From Sarea resinae (taxonomy: Eukaryota), in assembly GCA_026026165.1 (NCBI GenBank), contig JAPEUD010000040.1, positions 62,001-126,000 of the forward strand: a stretch of DNA of 64,000 bases, written 5' to 3'. Shown one piece after another: positions 130 through 60,840 of the stretch. The number at the start of each line of letters is the position of its first letter. The first letter of the stretch is position 1. Both the position numbers and the translations under genes were made by a program. The notes beneath the pieces were generated by a model, which ran no database searches, was not told the DNA's origin, and was given only the letters and a program-made list of their open reading frames with translations.

Positions 130-212
130 TGAGACGTTCGACGATAAAAGTCCCAAAACTCGCTTGCGTCTCCCCATCGGGCGTTCCGGCCAACTTTCGT
201 CGAACGTCCTCG
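130..212. repeat. Solo copy of the inverted-arm cassette found in the 32-33 kb array
   Basis: TGAGACGTTCGACGATAAAAGTCCCAAAACTCGCTTG...CGTCGAACGTCCTCG; the first 37 nt closely match array unit 9 (TGAGACGTTCAACGAAAAAGGTCCAGAGACTCGCTTG); the right arm has a 1-nt insertion. Confidence 0.8.
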
Positions 213-29856: not shown

Positions 29857-30200
29857 TCTACGATTTATCTATCTTATACTATGATAAAATCACATATGAG
29901 TTTCTCCTTGCGTTCACTTCCAATGTAAACACTCGACATATTCTCTATATACCTGCGGTTGTGTTGTCGATCAGCGCCTGTCCGATTTAGGAAGGTCTAA
30001 GAAATCAGGGTCGTTATCGATAAGGTTACGTCGCATACTAATGACGTTATGACTGTTTCCGTGCGACCTCTTGAGTTTCTATCATAAATTCAAGGCAATT
30101 CCTCTTTCTCTTTCCAAAATCAACTCAGTATATCGTACCCCTAGAAGAATTTCTGGTTTCGAAACTGAAAACTCGTCACCTCGGATCAAGGTCTCTCAAC

Positions 30201-31559
30201 ATGACAGGCCTCATCACCTACAAGGGCTGGTCTCTCTCCGAGATGCCACCCTTGACCGACAAGGTAGCCGTCATCACCGGCGGCTCTTCAGGTATTGGCC
30301 GCGAAATCACGGCTCAGCTCCTCCTTCATGATGTCAAGAAAGTCTACATCCTCGGCCGCTCGCAGGACAAATATCACAAATCTCTACTAGAGTGGTCAGA
30401 GAAGAAGGGTATCAAGACCGAGAACAGCACGACGCGCACGACGTTCGTAAAATGTGATTTGACCGACGTCAATGATGTGAAGCGCGTCGCGGAAACCCTG
30501 TCAAGCCAGCTCGAACGACTGGACATGCTGTTCTGCAACGCGGCCATCTCAACCTTCGAGCCATACGGGCTCTCGCCTCAGGGCATCGAGACTATGTTCG
30601 CCGCCAACTACGTCGGCCACTTCACACTCACTATGCTTCTCCTGCCGCTCCTCGAGCGCACCGCCGGCCTCATGGCCACGAGCTCCTCCCCCACCGCCCC
30701 GCGCATCGTCGTCGCTACTTCCTCCCTCCACATGGCTTGTCGCGAGCTCGATTTTGCCGCCCTCACGTCCCCAACCCCCACGAAATGGCCCCCGCAGCTC
30801 GAATCCCCCTGGCGCTATGCGAGGAGTAAATTGGCCGACATCCTCTTCACGAGGCAACTGGCTCGGCGTCTCGAGAAGAGAGGCCACGGCCAGGCCAGCA
30901 GTAAAATATATGTGAACACTTATTTCCCGGGCAATGTCCCGACGGAGGCCATGGATAGCTGGAAGGACGGATTGGGGCTGCTCCTGGGCACGGCGATGAA
31001 GAGCGTTTTTTATGTGCTGGGCCAGGGCGTGCAGGATGGGGCTGCGGGGGCCTTGTTCTTGGGTACGGCGAGGGAGGTCGAAGAGAATGATCTCAGGGGC
31101 AGGTATTTCATTCCTATCGCCACCGAGGATAGGACTAGTGCGCTTGGCGAGGATATGGATCTCGCGAGGAATTTGTGGAGTTGGACTGAACAGAAGGTTA
31201 GGGAGACGTTGGGGGACGCGTGGTTGGATGAGCCGAAGGAGAAGGTGGAGGTGAAGGATGACGGTGAGAAGGTTGAGAAGAAGGTTGAGAAGAAGGCTGA
31301 GAAGAAGGCTGAGAAGAAGGCTGAGAACAAGTTTGACAGTGCGAGAGTTGATGGGCAGCAGGTTGATGAAGGTCCAAAGGTCTCTAGGATGAGGAAATTT
31401 GATGGGGCGCCGAAGTTTGATGGGGAGAAAGGCTATGGTGAAGCTGAAAACAGAAAGGAGGAAGTGCCGCAGCGAAAGCTGGACGTCCAGGGAGGGGGCG
31501 ATGCCGGTGAAAAGGAGGCAATCCACATGGATTCGAATTACTCACCGATTGCATACTGA
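30201..31559 (+). CDS. Short-chain dehydrogenase/reductase (retinol-DH/WWOX-like) with a charged C-terminal tail
   Basis: TGGSSGIG, CDL, NAA, NYVGHF, catalytic YARSK. Confidence 0.9.
   Translation: MTGLITYKGWSLSEMPPLTDKVAVITGGSSGIGREITAQLLLHDVKKVYILGRSQDKYHKSLLEWSEKKGIKTENSTTRTTFVKCDLTDVNDVKRVAETLSSQLERLDMLFCNAAISTFEPYGLSPQGIETMFAANYVGHFTLTMLLLPLLERTAGLMATSSSPTAPRIVVATSSLHMACRELDFAALTSPTPTKWPPQLESPWRYARSKLADILFTRQLARRLEKRGHGQASSKIYVNTYFPGNVPTEAMDSWKDGLGLLLGTAMKSVFYVLGQGVQDGAAGALFLGTAREVEENDLRGRYFIPIATEDRTSALGEDMDLARNLWSWTEQKVRETLGDAWLDEPKEKVEVKDDGEKVEKKVEKKAEKKAEKKAENKFDSARVDGQQVDEGPKVSRMRKFDGAPKFDGEKGYGEAENRKEEVPQRKLDVQGGGDAGEKEAIHMDSNYSPIAY
31266..31331 (+). repeat. Coding 12-bp tandem repeat (EKKV/EKKA)
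   Basis: GAGAAGAAGG(T/C)T, about 5 copies, inside the SDR tail. Confidence 0.85.
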
Positions 31560-32072
31560 AATGATTTATGAAAAGGAACAAAACCCAGTGATCTGGGGTT
31601 GGTGCTTAGGGGCTGGTTTGATGGCGAATCTCGGAGACGGAATGGGATTCGGAGCATGGAAAAAGCGCTTGTTTACTATTTGCTCTTTGCTAGGTTGTGA
31701 GGTAGGAAGGCGCCGATGCGGTACTGAGCTGACTGAGGTATCTTCAACGAATAATGAATCCATATTATTGCGGGACTAGAATCTGTTTGTTTGAACCGGC
31801 TGGTATGTATCTGCATAGTTTCTAGCCGTAGTAGATGCAATGATATCCTGACGACCTCACGGTCGGACTAGGAAATTGGTAACCAAACCCGGCAGGTGGA
31901 TGGAGGACTGTAGCCGTTGGGTCATGATCCGAATCAAATGTTCAAATACAATTGAACGACTCACGAAAACAGGACTGCTCTCAAGTATACCTTAGGGTTC
32001 CCGCTATGGTTACCTACCTAAGGTAGGTACCTTAAAGAGTGAGGTGAGTAGTGTGAGGAATGGCTGAATCAC

Positions 32073-33390
32073 TGAGACGTTCAACGATGTTACGCCTAAA
32101 TCGGGACAAGTCCACCTCAGCGAGTATTTGCACTTTTTTCGTCAAACGTCTCAGTCGGGGCGCAGGCACAAGGGCTGCTGGCGATCCATTGGCGATGCAC
32201 CGGCGATGGGCAGGCTCCAGATTTTGAGACGTTCGACGGACTTTGCAAATTTCAAGGCACTGGGAGGCTTTAGACATATTTCGTTCGAACGTCTCAAAAT
32301 CTAGCTGGCCGGTCGCCCGCACAGCGACAGTGTATCGCCAGTGGATCGCCAGCCTCTCGCCGGCGCACTAGCACCTGTGCCCCCGCCTGAGACGTTCGAC
32401 GAAAAAGGTGTCGAAATAAGCTTACTAGTAGTTTCAGAGAAATATCGTCGAACGTCTCAGTATTTCAACCATTCCTCACGTTCACCTCACTTTATAGGCG
32501 AGAATGGCCTGAATTCTAAGCTGAACCTCAAAGTCGTGCATTTTTGCTTGAGACGTTCGACGATATTTCTCTGAAACTACTAGTAAGCTTATTTCGACAC
32601 CTTTTTCGTCGAACGTCTCAGAATCTACAGCCTGCTCATTGCTGGTGCATAGCAGGCGCATCGCCGGTGCATCGCCAGCGCTCTCGCCTGAGACGTTCAA
32701 CGAAAAAAGTCCAAAAACTCCTCAGTGAATATTTCGCAGAAATCATCGGACGTCTCAGTCTTGATACGGTTCCGTTTTGACGAGGTCGACAGTGTCGATA
32801 CGGTCTAACAGTGTCAATACGGTTTCCCCGCTGACACGGTATCGTGCTGCCCAAGCTGAGACGTTCAACGAAAAAAGTGCACCCCCTCCTCTTTGAGTTT
32901 TTCGCCCAAAAGCATCGAACGTCTCAGTCTAAAACGGTTCCGTTTTGACAGGGTCGACGGTGTCGATACGGTCTAACGGTGTCAATACGATCTGACAGTG
33001 TCGATACGGTTTTCCCGTTGACACGGTTTCGTACTGCTCAGCTGAGACGTTCGACGGAAAAAGTGCACCACCTCTTCTATGAGTTTTATGCCCAAAATCA
33101 TCGAACGTCTCACTTTTTTAATTTGGTTCCTTGACGGTATCGGTACGGTCTAACGGTGTCGATACGGTCTTTCCGTTGATACGGTATCGTACCGCTCAGC
33201 TGAGACGTTCAACGGAAAAAGTGCACCACCTGTGAGTTTTTCGCCAAAATCATCGAACGTCTCAATTGTAATCACGCGAACATGGTGTCAACATGGTGTC
33301 AACATGATGTGAGCATTCATGGTATCAACATGTTATCAACACGTTACCCGCGGTGAGACGTTCAACGAAAAAGGTCCAGAGACTCGCTTG
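32073..33390. repeat. Array of 8.5 inverted-arm cassettes (TGAGACGTTCRACG ... CRTCGAACGTCTCA), mean period 160 bp
   Basis: Cassettes at 32073-32153, 32225-32296, 32388-32459, 32549-32620, 32689-32757, 32857-32926, 33043-33112 and 33201-33264, plus a left-arm-only unit from 33354. Confidence 0.95.
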
Positions 33391-33839
33391 GGCATATCTA
33401 CCTACCTACGGATACCAACGAAACATACCTTAAGGTAGTGGAGATATCTAGCTTAAGAGCATTCATAGAGATAGTGAGATGCTCTCTGGAATTTGGCATC
33501 ACCACACGTAGAGGATTAGGATTTCTTATATTCACCGCGATATCATTTGCTCTTCCCGTTCAATAGTCTGCGAGAACTGCTAAGAGGACTATCAAGAAGC
33601 GATCGAGAAAATGATAGACCAAGCGCATAGGATTACAAGCCTGCCATAAGCGTTTCCGCATATCCATATTCGCGTTCGCTGTAGAGTCAGGGCATTCATA
33701 TCCAGTAAGAAAGAACCTCCAGACTTTGAAGCGATCAAAACAAGCCCCCCTTAGCCAAGACCCCATTTTTGTGTCTCAAAGCATAACCCTTGCCATCCGT
33801 TCGTTGCGCCAGTAAACCATCCTGAACCCGAAACCCACC

Positions 33840-35444
33840 TCAACGACCTTCCCAGGGACTGCTACTGCTAGCAGTAACATCCTCAAAGGCCAGCTCCCAT
33901 TGATCGACCTCTTGAAACTTCTGCCTCGCGGCCTCTATCTCCGGAGCCGGTTCTGGTCTCTTGCGTGTAGGCGTTGCATCGGTACTATCGTCAAGCGGTC
34001 CAAGACTGTCGTTTCCTGGGTTCGAAGCGGCCGGCAACACTCGTATAGTACCTTCATTTTCTTTGTCAGATGATGCGCGGCGGGTGTACGTCCTGAGACC
34101 CTTGGTTTGGGTAGCCGTCAACTTCGTAGATTTCGTCTTTGCTGGCCTGCCTCGCTTCTTGACGGTCGGCTTGGTGGTTTTTGCAGCACGCGATTGTCTT
34201 TGCGCTGTCTTTCTATTCGGTACAAAGGTAAGCTCGTCTTCGTCCTCGTCTACAACAATCGGCGTCGCTTCTGCTTCGCTGCTACTGAGCACGTCAAAGT
34301 CACCACGGGGGCCTCGACGACGTCGACGTGGAAGTAGATTCTGGAGCGCGGCTGTTGAGACTGGGTCTCGTCGTCTGGCTTTTTTGTTTCTTGCTGGCGG
34401 AGATCCAAAATCTGCCGGCGCCGTTTGCTTGGCCGCCTGGGCTAGTCGCGATGACTGAGTTTGCTTGGAACCCGCTCTCGTAGACCTGGTTCGACTGATT
34501 GGTTCAGGACTGCCCGGGCTGCTGCTTCGTGGCGGTGCCATTGTCTCGCTATCCAATTCGGGCGCGACTTCATGCTTGTCTCGGGATTCTTGCCGTGTTT
34601 CTTCACCAATTGCCTCAATATCGGGGAGGCTGATACTCTGAGAGCTCTGATCATTAAGCGCTGATTCACCGCTTGGACTCACTGCTGGTGGGGGCGAGGA
34701 CCGTGGCACTTCAACCGTTGGAGGCGTTAACTTGCGCTTCCTCGAGCTCGATGTTGGTGGCGAGCGAGGGGTTGAGAGAGATGTTGGTTCATCGTCTATG
34801 TGAGGCTTTGAAATATCCAATTTGAGAGGAGTTGATTCGTCATCGGGGTTAAAATCGTCTTCATCTTCGTCTGTATCATCCTGGCGTACCATGCGCAAAA
34901 TACTCGGCTGACGTGGTCGACGTTTGAAATTTGCAATCGCAAGGACCGAGTTGTCAACACCGGGTGTTCCTGGAACTTTACGTCTGAGCCCAGGTCTCTG
35001 ATCCGTTGCGCGTGTCGTCCCCACCACATTCTCCCCCTGGCTTTCCGTTTCCTTTCTGACCGTGCCTGGGATCTCGACTCCGCCCTCTCGTGCCTTCTTC
35101 CTAGCTTTCAAAGCTTCGATAGCCTTTGCATTCTTCTCATCAGTGGCCGATGCGACATTGACGGCCCTCTGCCGAAGTACCCTCGATCTTCGAGTTGGAT
35201 CCGGCACGTCTCCTGGTCCAAGCCCTCCCTTCATTTCAATCTTCTCGTTCGCCGCAAGCCTGCTGAGTCGCGGCACCTTCCTCTTAGTAGTAAGCGGGGT
35301 ACTACTATCACTGCTTCCATCATCTGCCAGTATGTCCTCTGCGCGTAATCGGTGTTGAGAGCTGGTGGCTTTCCCAACCGTTGGTTTCTTGACGCGTGAA
35401 GCGGGCGCTGAGGGCGCTACCTTTGATCGCGGTGGACGCGGCAT
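33840..35444 (-). CDS. Basic disordered protein, probable Sororin/Sor1 cohesin regulator
   Basis: 534-aa single ORF; AT-hook-like KKRGRPAK, YSR-like RTYTRR, KEN box DKENE, C-terminal KFQEVDQWELAFEDV resembling the Sororin domain. Confidence 0.6.
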   Translation of the reverse strand: MPRPPRSKVAPSAPASRVKKPTVGKATSSQHRLRAEDILADDGSSDSSTPLTTKRKVPRLSRLAANEKIEMKGGLGPGDVPDPTRRSRVLRQRAVNVASATDEKNAKAIEALKARKKAREGGVEIPGTVRKETESQGENVVGTTRATDQRPGLRRKVPGTPGVDNSVLAIANFKRRPRQPSILRMVRQDDTDEDEDDFNPDDESTPLKLDISKPHIDDEPTSLSTPRSPPTSSSRKRKLTPPTVEVPRSSPPPAVSPSGESALNDQSSQSISLPDIEAIGEETRQESRDKHEVAPELDSETMAPPRSSSPGSPEPISRTRSTRAGSKQTQSSRLAQAAKQTAPADFGSPPARNKKARRRDPVSTAALQNLLPRRRRRGPRGDFDVLSSSEAEATPIVVDEDEDELTFVPNRKTAQRQSRAAKTTKPTVKKRGRPAKTKSTKLTATQTKGLRTYTRRASSDKENEGTIRVLPAASNPGNDSLGPLDDSTDATPTRKRPEPAPEIEAARQKFQEVDQWELAFEDVTASSSSPWEGR

Positions 35445-52939: not shown

Positions 52940-54389
52940 CGTAGCATTGGAATCTCCGAGCGAGATATGACTGGAGAAAGAGATGAAGACGAGGATTCGA
53001 TGTATTTACGCTACGATCAATAGGCAATTGGCACTTTCTCTACCTTCACGTCGTGGTGAGGGGTTCTGCCGTCTGCCGTGGACCGAACGCAGTCGTGGAC
53101 GGTCAGGTCAGGGTCGTTGTTGTTATGTCATTGGATTAGTCGGAGCTGGACATGTTCCTTATCGATAAGGAGACCGGTGTCTTAGTAATACTGCCGCCGA
53201 GGACTCGGTATCTCTACAGAGCAGAAGAAGATTAAAAGAGGACTTGATGGGAGAATAGCCCCGACAACAATGCACGAGGAACTGTTACTATTTGGATGTC
53301 ATGCAACAGAATGAAAGTTCAAAGCTAGCTGGCTCCAAGAGAATGACGGCTTATCCATAGGTTCTGGAGACTTGGATTCCCTATCAAATCAACTCTAGCC
53401 CTCACCTGGAAACTCACCTCACCTGAAGCCTCACCTCACCTCGCCGGAATACGCGCACCTGACAGAAACAGCGGCAATGACATCGCCACCACTAGGTCTC
53501 ATAGCTCAGGTAGACACGGGAACGGTTTACGTTGCACTCGATGCTTTCGGTGGAATAGACTTCATATCCACGGTGATCCGCATTGAAGAGTTCTATTGGT
53601 CTGAGATGCTCTACTGCCGGGGCTGAGTGTGAAAAACACGCGCGCGTACGCAAAGAGCATGCATGCATGCCTGAGCTGGGACAAAGCGTGGCGGGCGCGG
53701 GGGACGCGGTCTTGATGGGAATGCAAAGAAGAGTCAAGGGCTGGGGCTGGGGCTGGGGCTGGGGCACTTCTTGGGCTCAAAGGCGTGATTGAGAAAGGGG
53801 GAAGGGGAATATGGGCATGGAAGGAGAAGGTGTATGGGCAGTTGCATGGGAAGGGGCAAGAAGGGGAAAAGGGGAAAGGAAAGCGAAGGGGCATGAAGGA
53901 TCTGGTAGATTGTCCGGAAAACTGGGTAACATGAAGAGAAAAATGGGCTTGTCGCTATCCTCGCCGACGCAAAAAAAGAAGAAAAAGAGGAACACGAGAT
54001 AATAGCGCCTGATGAATCGAGAAATATGAAAAGAAAAAGAAAAGACATTGGAGTCCGCCTGATCGGATCATAGAGTCAAAAGCCTTGCTGCTGTTCTATT
54101 CCTTGCCGCTGTGTTTTTGAAGTGCCGATGTTGATGATGAACGGTGGGCGATGATAGTAGGCTTGTCTGGCTTCATCGCGTTGTCGATAATAGTTGATCA
54201 CCAGTTTTGGAGCTGCGCTTGATCGTACAGGAATGATGAACTAGCATCAGGGGCGACGGGCTGAGTAGCGTAGCCATGCCGTTCTGGATGGTTACGATAT
54301 TAGTCCAGATGGCCAGCTGAGGATGGTTGATTGCTCATTGATCTTGGCTTACCTTGAATACAAGATGCCGCACCCAACCCGCTAGAAAA

Positions 54390-59005: not shown

Positions 59006-59948
59006 ATCTGATAAAGGCGAGCGAGGAAGATCAGATTACTTGTAGGGCGGATGCAGCATCGGTAGTGAGAGAGAATTCGTACCGGTTTGGGACCTGCTAG
59101 GCCCGAAACCGACAAGGGCGAACATGTCGACGGAATGGCTGGCGTCAATGGGATGGGAAGAGCCAGTGAAAGCGTGGAGATGCGGGTGGAGACGGCCGGG
59201 ATGTGGTTTTTTGAGGGTGCGGCTGCCCCACCGGGAGTGCCAGTAATGCGCGCAATTTGACGAGGGAAGAATGCGTGGAAGGTGAGAAGAGGGAGGTGAG
59301 CTGATCTCGGCCGTTGGGGCTAGAAAACTTCGCGGGCGGTTTTATTACTACCTACGTAGCAGGGCTTGTACTCGGCATGGCCGTCTTGGAGTTCTTAGAG
59401 TAGGTAGGTACGGGTAGAGGACGGCGTACTCATAGTCGAGTCGAGTCGAATCAAGTAATAGGCCTGCAAGCGGACTGGGCAGGCCCTCGGTCTTCAGGGC
59501 TGTGTGACTTCGATTGCTCGCACTATGCCGTCTGGCGCGTTAGTTAGAGTTATCTGATCCGCGTCCGTTCTTAAGCGAGCAAATGATGCATCCGTGCTAA
59601 CGGCTCCATCGATCCTTCGTGCCTTCGTGGCTCATGGTGCACTCATGGTGCACTCATAGTGCACTCATCGTTGCAGCATTGCAGGGTATTGCAGCATCGG
59701 GAGTTGGGGGTGGTCCATGTCTCCACGTCGTATCCATGGAGTAAGAGATTGGTGACTTCCACTCCTGGCCGCTCATGACCTCCTTGGCGGCTACTCGACC
59801 GTCGATGACATCCAACGACGACACGATGCAGCTGTTTCGCTATTATCAATCATCAATGTTCTCGGAGAAAGTGGAGATGGTAGCAGCAGGGGTACACCAA
59901 GTCTGAATGGTTAGGCGGAGTAGATAGAATCTGGCCACCATCTGATAA
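59006..59948. promoter_or_regulatory. Three SreA-type iron-repressor sites ATCWGATAA
   Basis: ATCTGATAA at 59006-59014, TTATCTGAT at 59550-59558 and ATCTGATAA at 59940-59948, all upstream of the siderophore transporter. Confidence 0.7.
59631..59668. repeat. 11-bp tandem repeat
   Basis: CTCATGGTGCA x2, CTCATAGTGCA, CTCAT. Confidence 0.8.
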
Positions 59949-60840
59949 CTAACTGCCTACCTGCTCCATACGAGTACGCAATGCAATTCGCATCTTCTCG
60001 AGCAGTCTGCCCCGAAGAGCCCCGTTGCACTCCCAGCCACGTACCCCACATCTTACCCATTACGGACAAGTCACTCGTCAATCAATGATTACTGCCATGC
60101 CGTGGAGGTGGGATATAATCAGATGCCCAGATTCACCATCCTGGTGATCGGGAGTAAGGCATCAACACGCTAAGGTACTCTAGAGCAACCTTTGGACCGA
60201 GGCCATCTGCTCGAGGATCGGGATCCTCTGGACACGTAAGGATTCTCTAGGTGCTTGGCGTCTATCACGAAGGCCGTTCTGGAAGATAGCCTGGTGCTCT
60301 ACCATGTCGCTTTCACCGAAGCATGCATGTTCCACGTCTGGCGCTGGAGATGTTTAGTCCGATACCGGAAACGTCTCAAGGCTGCTAACGTAGGGAGAGA
60401 GCAATGCTTCTGGAAGTTTTGCCAGAGCTGCTCATGTTGACCTGCCGATGGCTTACAGTACTAGCTGCAGCAGCCATGCTTGGCCCCTGATCAATAGGGG
60501 GAGCCGATGGGGAGTCTGTTGTCAAGCTCTATCGCTTCTCTGGGACTTGTCTGTTCGGTCCGGGAAGGTTACCTCAATGATCAACTGAGGACTCTTCACG
60601 ATGGAAGGATGGTAGCTTGCAACGAGCTAGCTACAATTTGTGCCATCTGGACTTCTGAGCATAACAAATGTAGACGAGTCTCGACAAGTGACCATTCATT
60701 CAGGTAATTCTGACATCCTGCAAAGAGACGCGAAGATGGGGATATGGCTACAGCCTCTTTTCGAAGCCAACTTGAATCAACGAATCTTGATACAAACTAC
60801 TTTACAAGCAGGAGCCAAGCAAACCCTATCTCGAGACCTA

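What the first reader, a model, noticed from the sequence alone, without database searches (positions are those of the whole stretch)
32073..33390. Unexplained array of invertible-looking cassettes: 17 conserved 14-bp arms around variable cores
Seen: 8 full units and one half unit, each TGAGACGTTCRACG + a 36-53 bp variable core (usually starting AAAAA(A/G)GT) + an inverted arm. They sit in a ~2.3-kb non-coding gap between two convergent genes. The arms stay nearly invariant while cores and linkers diverge strongly, the opposite of a neutrally decaying satellite, so the arms look selected as protein-binding or recombination sites, or as RNA/ssDNA hairpin stems. No transposase or recombinase is encoded in the window. 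Hypotheses (inference): a recombinase-site array similar to a shufflon or attC array; a non-autonomous foldback/MITE-type element; a chromatin-organising locus (boundary, origin or centromere-like); or a multi-hairpin ncRNA/small-RNA precursor. I do not recognise it as a described fungal element.
Basis: partly seen in the sequence, partly recalled or inferred. Interest (0 to 1): 0.85.

Follow-up and report, generated by a model that had tools for sequence, protein, structure and literature searches.

The report
Cluster of tiny fungal hairpin repeats
A roughly 70-base hairpin repeat, scattered singly through this fungus's genome and most likely the leftover ends of a small jumping gene, has piled up nine times between two ordinary genes and been flipped and recopied at its own arms, probably by replication errors rather than by a dedicated switching enzyme.

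Summary
The array is real: 17 arms, 8.5 units, in a 2,280-bp gap between convergent genes of an ascomycete. (1) The cores are homologous, so orientation is readable (- - + - + + + + +). (2) A solo unit lies at window 130-212, and other contigs of the probable source run carry arm plus core with unrelated flanks, so the unit is a dispersed, lineage-restricted repeat. (3) The array is a tandem run (U5-U9), an inverted duplication folded back at U2, and U4, an exact inverted copy of U3 whose edges fall on the arms. Arms are more conserved than cores (164/174 versus 176/250). No target-site duplication (0 of 9), no transposase or recombinase in the window, no Rfam family, no homologue outside. Best reading (about 0.6): ends of a non-autonomous DNA transposon (MITE-like, or Helitron2-like: arm-core-arm matches a joined-end geometry), amplified locally and reshuffled by template switching at inverted arms. 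A shufflon is unlikely (about 0.06). Superfamily and autonomous partner remain unidentified because no genome is held.

The parts
130..212 (+). Solo unit (arm, 54-bp core, damaged right arm), 3' of the mRNA-capping-enzyme gene; flanks unrelated to the array linkers
   Evidence: 64 bits
30075..31559 (+). Short-chain dehydrogenase reading frame (stop to stop); left neighbour
   Evidence: 52% to the SDR part of a Geoglossum gene model
32012..32028 (.). Short palindrome at the left edge of the array, where the inverted duplication's homology ends
32036..32072 (-). Linker B' (inverted copy of the start of L3)
32073..32153 (-). U1, core reversed
32154..32224 (-). Linker A' (11-bp repeats), inverted copy of L2/L4
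32225..32296 (-). U2, centre of an imperfect ~430-bp palindrome (fold-back centre)
32297..32387 (+). Linker A (L2)
32388..32459 (+). U3
32460..32548 (+). Linker B (L3), 89-nt loop between the U3/U4 perfect inverted repeat
32549..32620 (-). U4, exact reverse complement of U3 with unrelated flanks
32621..32688 (+). Linker A (L4)
32689..32757 (+). U5
32758..33353 (+). Tandem run: linker C (11- and 19-bp repeats) alternating with U6 (32857-32926), U7 (33043-33112) and U8 (33201-33264)
33354..33390 (+). U9, half unit: left arm plus ~23 bp of core, no right arm
33840..35444 (-). 534-aa gene of unknown function, conserved in Pezizomycotina; right neighbour
   Evidence: no Pfam family

Best explanation
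The unit is a small non-autonomous DNA-transposon derivative: two ~33-36-bp ends, each starting with the 14-15-bp arm, joined by a short variable middle. SHOWN: the unit is dispersed in this genome with edges at the arms; cores share descent; arms are the most conserved part; the array consists of a ~160-bp tandem run, an inverted duplication centred on U2, and an exact inverted copy of U3 at U4. INFERRED: the arms stayed constant because a transposase encoded elsewhere needed them while the family spread. One copy in this intergenic gap was duplicated in tandem with its flank, and the closely spaced inverted arms then served as template-switch points during replication. Fold-back at U2 made B'-U1'-A'-U2-A-U3-B; a switch between the facing arms of U3 and U4 copied U3 backwards into site 4. 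This flips cores and re-perfects arms with no recombinase. The mobilising enzyme is unresolved: about even odds between a cut-and-paste transposase (MADE1-like paired ends) and a Helitron2-type rolling-circle transposase (arm-core-arm equals the 3'-end/5'-end junction). No host function is needed.
For: Dispersal: solo unit at 130-212 with core homologous to U1 and U5 (z 5.4, 5.0). In run X1, 11 of 22 laid records fit only partly; record 3 is another 8,546-nt contig holding a whole unit with 14 differences and 4 gaps; 4 of the 6 displayed X1 loose-end rows break within 2 nt of an arm's outer edge. Ends: left and right ends align inward for ~33-36 bp and the length variation is central. Arm conservation: 164/174 versus 176/250 letters match the column majority in 6 lineage representatives (U4, U6, U8 left out as near-duplicates), Fisher p 2e-10. 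Rearrangements: U3/U4 identity spans 73 nt and stops at the arms; the same linker start abuts both arms of U2. Yeast inversion junctions form at 2-14-bp interrupted inverted repeats of 40-80 bp (PMC10766183, passages); the units are 64-81 bp. Template switching homogenises arms and inverts spacers (PMC8604942, passages). Decay: 10 of 11 substitutions in the 17 ungapped arms scored are CpG transitions. Helitron2 geometry: FoHeli 3' repeat 38-51 bp from the end, HINE 38-60 bp, against cores of 36-54 bp.
Against: No target-site duplication at 0 of 9 full units, which a cut-and-paste MITE should leave. No autonomous partner seen, and no genome was available to look for one. The two fully visible dispersed copies are arm-core-arm, which a Helitron2 should show only at tandem junctions. 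The arm's likeness to FoHeli 5' ends is not significant (1.6-9.9% of window 16-mers score as well). Copy number looks low for a MITE. X1 may be the source, so it is not independent. The U3/U4 facing arms are 89 nt apart, beyond the 40-80-bp optimum, and the spacer inversions in PMC8604942 were only 2-5 bp. The Fisher test treats related copies as independent and the units were found by their arms. TGAGACGT is perfect in 17 of 17 arms although it contains a CpG, which could reflect ongoing selection.
Confidence: 0.6

Rival explanations
1. Host protein-binding element: pairs of facing sites about 42 bp apart, repeated at roughly nucleosome spacing, acting as a boundary, origin or chromatin-organising array (native or domesticated from a transposon).
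For: Octamer perfect in 17 of 17 arms. Spacing 140-186 bp, mean 160, although linkers A, B and C are not detectably homologous. Both the solo unit and the array lie about 450-580 bp 3' of genes.
Against: Cores share descent, so copies spread by copying. The inner arm positions decay at CpG. The TYGAAC match to the Pichia GC-ACS is 6 bp only, and those ARS sequences read as tRNA genes by my recognition, whereas the window has no tRNA. No homologue in any collection searched.
Confidence: 0.15
2. No transposon involved: a chance interrupted inverted repeat that is self-perfecting and self-copying through template switching and ectopic repair, giving a complex inverted minisatellite plus a few dispersed copies.
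For: No TSD; both large rearrangements end at arms; linkers contain inverted and tandem micro-repeats; unit size matches the ODIRA optimum.
Against: Hairpin correction keeps two arms complementary but should let unlinked copies drift. The solo left arm equals the array consensus while its core is only 44-56% identical to the others. There are 0 compensatory changes.
Confidence: 0.12
3. Site-specific recombination array (shufflon- or attC-like) whose cores are inverted or exchanged by a recombinase encoded elsewhere.
For: Cores occur in both orientations, and the U3/U4 copy has edges at the arms.
Against: No integrase, resolvase or transposase Pfam hit in 367 frames. Cores encode nothing and join no gene. 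Contigs run unbranched over 31318-32416 and 32592-34600 and no strand-changing joint was listed (contigs drop rare variants, so this limits only frequent switching).
Confidence: 0.06
4. Multi-hairpin non-coding RNA or small-RNA precursor, for example from read-through of the minus-strand gene.
For: Each unit folds through its arms (z -1.6 to -5.2 as DNA) and 32040-32700 folds strongly (z -24). All 10 CpG changes are G>A on +, which remain G-U pairs on the minus strand (only about four independent events).
Against: 0 of 14 pairs show a change on both sides. Only Rfam hit is mir-722 at 22 bits against a cut-off of 81. Mixed unit orientations and solo copies fit a DNA element better.
Confidence: 0.05

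Closest known systems
Fungal Helitron2 (FoHeli1-5, PMC5148889, passages) and HINE/DINE-1 non-autonomous Helentrons (PMC4067079, passages and section 5; PMC11417382, passages)
   Same: 12-16-bp inverted repeats, one 38-60 bp from the 3' end (cores here 36-54 bp); no target-site duplication; central micro-repeats; tandem insertions and stacked termini; the arm read outward begins TC
   Different: Here the dispersed copies seen whole are arm-core-arm (junction-like); no conserved 3' hairpin; arm sequence not significantly like FoHeli ends; no RepHel partner shown
Paired-end micro-MITEs such as MADE1 (80 bp, PMC9062482, one passage) and tandem-forming CMITEs (PMC2872659, part 1 of 4 and passages)
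   Same: Under 100 bp, two fused ends, non-coding, dispersed; CMITEs have 13-14-bp TIRs and form tandem arrays with gaps
   Different: No TSD in 9 of 9; low apparent copy number; asymmetric inner ends; mixed orientations; in CMITEs the interior is more conserved than the TIRs, the reverse of this case
Template-switch rearrangement at interrupted inverted repeats (ODIRA, PMC10766183; arm homogenisation and spacer inversion, PMC8604942; passages of both)
   Same: Arm length and unit size fall in the preferred range; inverted duplication centred on an interrupted repeat; flipped core
   Different: Those studies concern chance repeats in yeast; here the substrate is a repeated family, and one switch spans 89 nt
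Shufflons and integron attC arrays (recalled, not from a call)
   Same: Several inverted sites flanking short segments found in both orientations
   Different: No adjacent recombinase, no coding cassettes, no sign of frequent switching
Pichia pastoris GC-ACS (PMC3945215, passages and supplement 12, part 1 of 2)
   Same: TYGAAC hexamer in the arm
   Different: The Pichia sites sit in what read as tRNA B boxes; no tRNA here

Membership tests
MITE (cut-and-paste) | Short, non-coding, terminal inverted repeats | tested here: met
   64-83 bp, 14-15-bp arms; no Pfam hit for frames over the array
MITE (cut-and-paste) | Dispersed copies with sharp edges | tested here: met
   solo at 130-212; record 3 and loose ends (one run, possibly the source)
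MITE (cut-and-paste) | Target-site duplication | tested here: not met
   0 of 9 full units, 2-11 bp, four end offsets; array flanks may have been exchanged and the solo's right end is damaged
MITE (cut-and-paste) | High copy number, uniform size | tested here: inconclusive
   11 partly laid records at 80% likeness; no genome to count in; sizes vary
MITE (cut-and-paste) | Autonomous transposase element with the same ends | not testable with these tools
   no genome held; none in the window
Helitron2/HINE | 11-18-bp inverted repeats, the 3' copy 38-60 bp from the end | tested here: met
   14-15-bp arms; cores 36-54 bp when a unit is read as a head-to-tail junction
Helitron2/HINE | No target-site duplication | tested here: met
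Helitron2/HINE | Central micro- or minisatellite repeats | tested here: met
   11- and 19-bp repeats in linkers A and C; such repeats are also common elsewhere in the window
Helitron2/HINE | 3' stem-loop and T|T insertion site | tested here: inconclusive
   cores end in a T run on one strand but inner stems are not conserved; no empty site available
Helitron2/HINE | Dispersed copies built 5' repeat - body - 3' repeat - tail | tested here: not met
   solo at 130-212 is arm-core-arm with no further unit before 32073; only 129 bp are visible upstream
Helitron2/HINE | RepHel partner with the same termini | not testable with these tools
Shufflon/attC array | Cognate recombinase beside the sites | tested here: not met
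   0 of 367 frames; introns could hide short exons
Shufflon/attC array | Exchangeable coding segments | tested here: not met
   cores are 36-53 bp, intergenic
Shufflon/attC array | Mixed orientations in the population | tested here: inconclusive
   unbranched contigs, no strand-changing joint; contigs drop rare variants
Known structured RNA (Rfam, tRNA) | Score at family cut-off; covariation | tested here: not met
Pichia GC-ACS / tRNA B box | TYGAAC within a tRNA-type B box | tested here: not met
   hexamer present, tRNA absent; the B-box reading and the missing conserved C after the motif are from recall

The most novel reading that the evidence does not exclude
A ~70-bp element that spreads as a bare arm-core-arm unit without target-site duplication: either the joined ends of a Helitron2-type circle integrating on their own, or a 'replication parasite' whose size sits at the optimum for fork template switching, so that it copies, inverts and re-perfects itself with little or no dedicated transposase. 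Its cluster might also have seeded a gene-order inversion: the two flanking genes are convergent here but co-directional in a fused Geoglossum gene model.
Probability: 0.12. Interest if true: 0.75.

Novelty: new variant of a known kind. Interest (0 to 1): 0.38.

Why it matters
On the likely reading it is a modest find: an unclassified micro-repeat from a poorly sampled fungal lineage, with a compact natural record of fold-back and template-switch events at inverted arms that are otherwise known mostly from yeast experiments. It also shows that 'conserved arms, variable flipped cores' can arise without a recombinase. It would matter more if the bare arm-core-arm unit proved mobile without target-site duplication, because that would be a new minimal form of rolling-circle or replication-driven element, or if a host protein bound the arms.

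Tried and rejected
No genome is held, so no genome-wide count and no transposase hunt. Outside searches: strict arm pair in metagenomes, 0 hits; relaxed pair gave 2 viral, 12 bacterial/archaeal and 11 metagenome loci; all 25 score 32 bits or less with model R2, like wrong-orientation arm-only matches and far below true units (64-90, which built the model); arm plus A run in viral contigs, 0; blastn against plasmids and phages, no match. These collections hold few fungal genomes, and Dfam/Repbase were not available, so absence is weak. Runs: no RNA holder listed; X2 and X3 did not cover the array; neither is used as evidence. Rfam, ARAGORN and the bacterial promoter/terminator scan gave nothing. 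TRIM/solo-LTR idea (TG...CA ends): rejected by eye, no primer-binding site or polypurine tract beside units. Homology between the ends of linkers A, B and C: not significant. Arm versus FoHeli 5' ends: not significant. Lone octamer at 60371: no unit. Model R1 had its pairing one column out of register (seen); its searches and one search are superseded. Literature: four arm 13-mers occur in 3 papers on unrelated topics (listing only, not read); Crypton search, 0 papers; searches listed no description of this element; Tangerine Starship passages (PMC13486527) describe different ends; PMC9659126 (passages) served as background only. Supplements of the Helitron papers were not read and may list termini that bear on the assignment. 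Earlier findings of the scan: nothing by sequence or place; the word hits were bacterial and giant-virus repeats, not used.

Full report
Observation. The arm pattern matches 17 times in 32073-33367, 11 exactly, 4 with one and 2 with two mismatches. Its first eight bases are perfect in all 17, against 1.9 expected in the whole window. There are eight full units of 64-81 bp with cores of 36-53 bp and one half unit, spaced 140-186 bp. The 2,280-bp gap lies between a short-chain dehydrogenase gene on + and a 534-aa gene of no known family on -. That protein's best relatives are 34-41% identical, and the named ones come from Pleopsidium, Pycnora, Candelina and Geoglossales. The host is therefore a Pezizomycotina fungus without close sequenced kin, probably in or near Lichinomycetes in the wide sense (inference). 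Six contigs of run X1, which may be the source, tile the stretch with no differences.

The unit is a dispersed repeat. A tenth unit lies at window 130-212, with unrelated flanks and a core homologous to U1 and U5 (z 5.4 and 5.0). Of 22 X1 records laid, 11 fit only partly. One is a different 8,546-nt contig with a whole unit (14 differences, 4 gaps). Six loose-end rows are displayed for X1 (seven contigs, one possibly the solo's own; 15 further rows over all runs were not shown): four break within 2 nt of an arm's outer edge, one at an inner edge and one inside a core. One record holds two left arms in direct orientation, which hints at a second cluster. This is one run and a lower bound. No genome is held. 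Nothing homologous was found elsewhere: 25 loci from relaxed arm-pair scans all scored at arm-only level, and searches were empty. These collections are poor in fungi.

Anatomy. The cores are homologous, so the orientation reads - - + - + + + + +. Read inward, the left end is the arm, an A run and a further ~15 conserved bases; the right end is the arm, a T run and a related stretch; the length variation is central. In six lineage representatives (U4, U6 and U8 left out), 164 of 174 arm letters match the column majority against 176 of 250 core letters (p 2e-10; copies are related and were found by their arms, so the p value is generous). Ten of the 11 substitutions in the 17 ungapped arms scored are G>A at CpG, in about four independent events, which suggests methylation-driven decay (inference). 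No pair shows a compensatory change. No target-site duplication was found at any of 9 full units.

How the array was built. Three linker types occur. The layout is B'-U1'-A'-[U2]-A-U3-B-[U4]-A-U5-C-U6-C-U7-C-U8-C*-U9. U5-U9 is a tandem run: C linkers are 72-89% identical over aligned columns. The same A start abuts both arms of U2, so the left part is an inverted duplication folded back at U2; its far edge lies at a short palindrome at 32012-32028. U4 is the exact reverse complement of U3 over 73 nt, with unrelated flanks. In yeast, inversion junctions form at pre-existing interrupted inverted repeats of 2-14 bp, preferentially 40-80 bp in size (PMC10766183, passages), and polymerase template switching homogenises arms and inverts spacers (PMC8604942, passages). 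The units are close to ideal substrates, so both events can be explained without an enzyme (inference). Against this, the U3/U4 switch spans 89 nt, and the published spacer inversions were only 2-5 bp. A local inverted transposition of U3 would also fit.

What keeps the arms constant between unlinked copies. Hairpin correction alone should let separate loci drift, yet the solo's left arm equals the consensus while its core is 44-56% identical to the others. The simplest known cause is selection on transposon ends while a family spreads. Two kinds fit in part. Paired-end micro-MITEs such as MADE1 are about 80 bp (PMC9062482, one passage) and CMITEs form gapped tandem arrays (PMC2872659), but the TSD test fails. 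Fungal Helitron2 elements have 12-16-bp repeats with the 3' copy 38-51 bp from the end, occur with joined ends and stack termini (PMC5148889, passages). HINEs have 12-15-bp repeats, a 38-60-bp tail, micro-repeats and no TSD (PMC4067079). A head-to-tail junction of such an element is arm-core-arm with a core of this length. But the two dispersed copies seen whole are themselves arm-core-arm, and the arm is not significantly like FoHeli ends. I therefore file it under neither family. It works like a non-autonomous transposon end-pair, confidence about 0.6.

Rivals. A host binding-site array (0.15) is favoured by the perfect octamer and the steady ~160-bp spacing over unrelated linkers. The TYGAAC match to the Pichia origin motif is weak, since those sites read as tRNA B boxes (my recognition) and the window has no tRNA. 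A purely template-switch-made satellite (0.12) does not explain constant arms in solos. A shufflon (0.06) lacks a recombinase (0 of 367 frames) and coding cassettes, and contigs run unbranched across U1-U2 and U5-U9, though rare variants would be lost. A hairpin RNA (0.05) has no covariation or Rfam support; the one hint is that the CpG changes stay G-U-compatible on the minus strand.

Context. A Geoglossum gene model fuses homologues of both flanking genes in one direction (52% over 343 aa to the SDR; 37% over 188 aa to the other). The adjacency is old and one lineage has inverted one gene, with a breakpoint in this interval if the change happened on this side. It rests on one automated gene model, local inversions are common in these fungi (recalled), and no arm lies in the gap upstream of the SDR, so no causal link is claimed.

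Verdict. Real, non-random and, in the searches named, undescribed, but most likely a transposon-derived micro-repeat cluster reshaped by known replication errors: a new variant of a known kind, interest 0.38. The boldest reading not excluded (0.12) is a bare arm-core-arm element that moves without target-site duplication.

Noticed in passing
window 30075-35444 versus protein P0069: A Geoglossum umbratile gene model fuses homologues of both flanking genes co-directionally, whereas they are convergent here: old adjacency with a local inversion in one lineage.
   Followed up: partly
L002 990-1092 (IMG/VR phage contig): Doubled inverted arms with a similar 9-12-bp word around a T/A-rich centre, between a primase/helicase-like frame and terminase-like frames (gene identities by eye); looks like a phage replication origin; core unrelated; the doubled inverted form was seen in 1 of 3 hits.
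   Followed up: partly
window 32012 and 33400: The octamer ACCTACCT occurs only twice on the + strand of the window, once at each edge of the array, each within a TACCT/AGGTA-rich patch; possibly the original insertion patch.
   Followed up: partly
PMC3945215 supplement 12: The Pichia GC-ARS test fragments read as reverse-complemented tRNA genes, with TYGAAC as the B box; the passages seen discuss Hsf1 instead. My recognition, not run through a tRNA finder.
   Followed up: no
window 31240-31338: 12-bp repeat encoding KKVE/KKAE units in a C-terminal extension of the SDR; the match to the Geoglossum SDR ends before it.
   Followed up: no
window 32431-32577: The contig carrying the loop between U3 and U4 has lower depth (227) than the flanks (333-378), as a strong hairpin might cause; the loop's orientation between the perfect repeats is not fixed by contigs.
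   Followed up: no
window 53400-53441 and 59631-59668: Intergenic 17-bp and 11-bp minisatellites whose words resemble linkers B and C*, without arms.
   Followed up: partly
L004, L008, L015, L017, L020: Bacterial intergenic repeats built on a palindromic 20-mer containing the arm's first 11 bases, in several copies per locus; unrelated cores.
   Followed up: no
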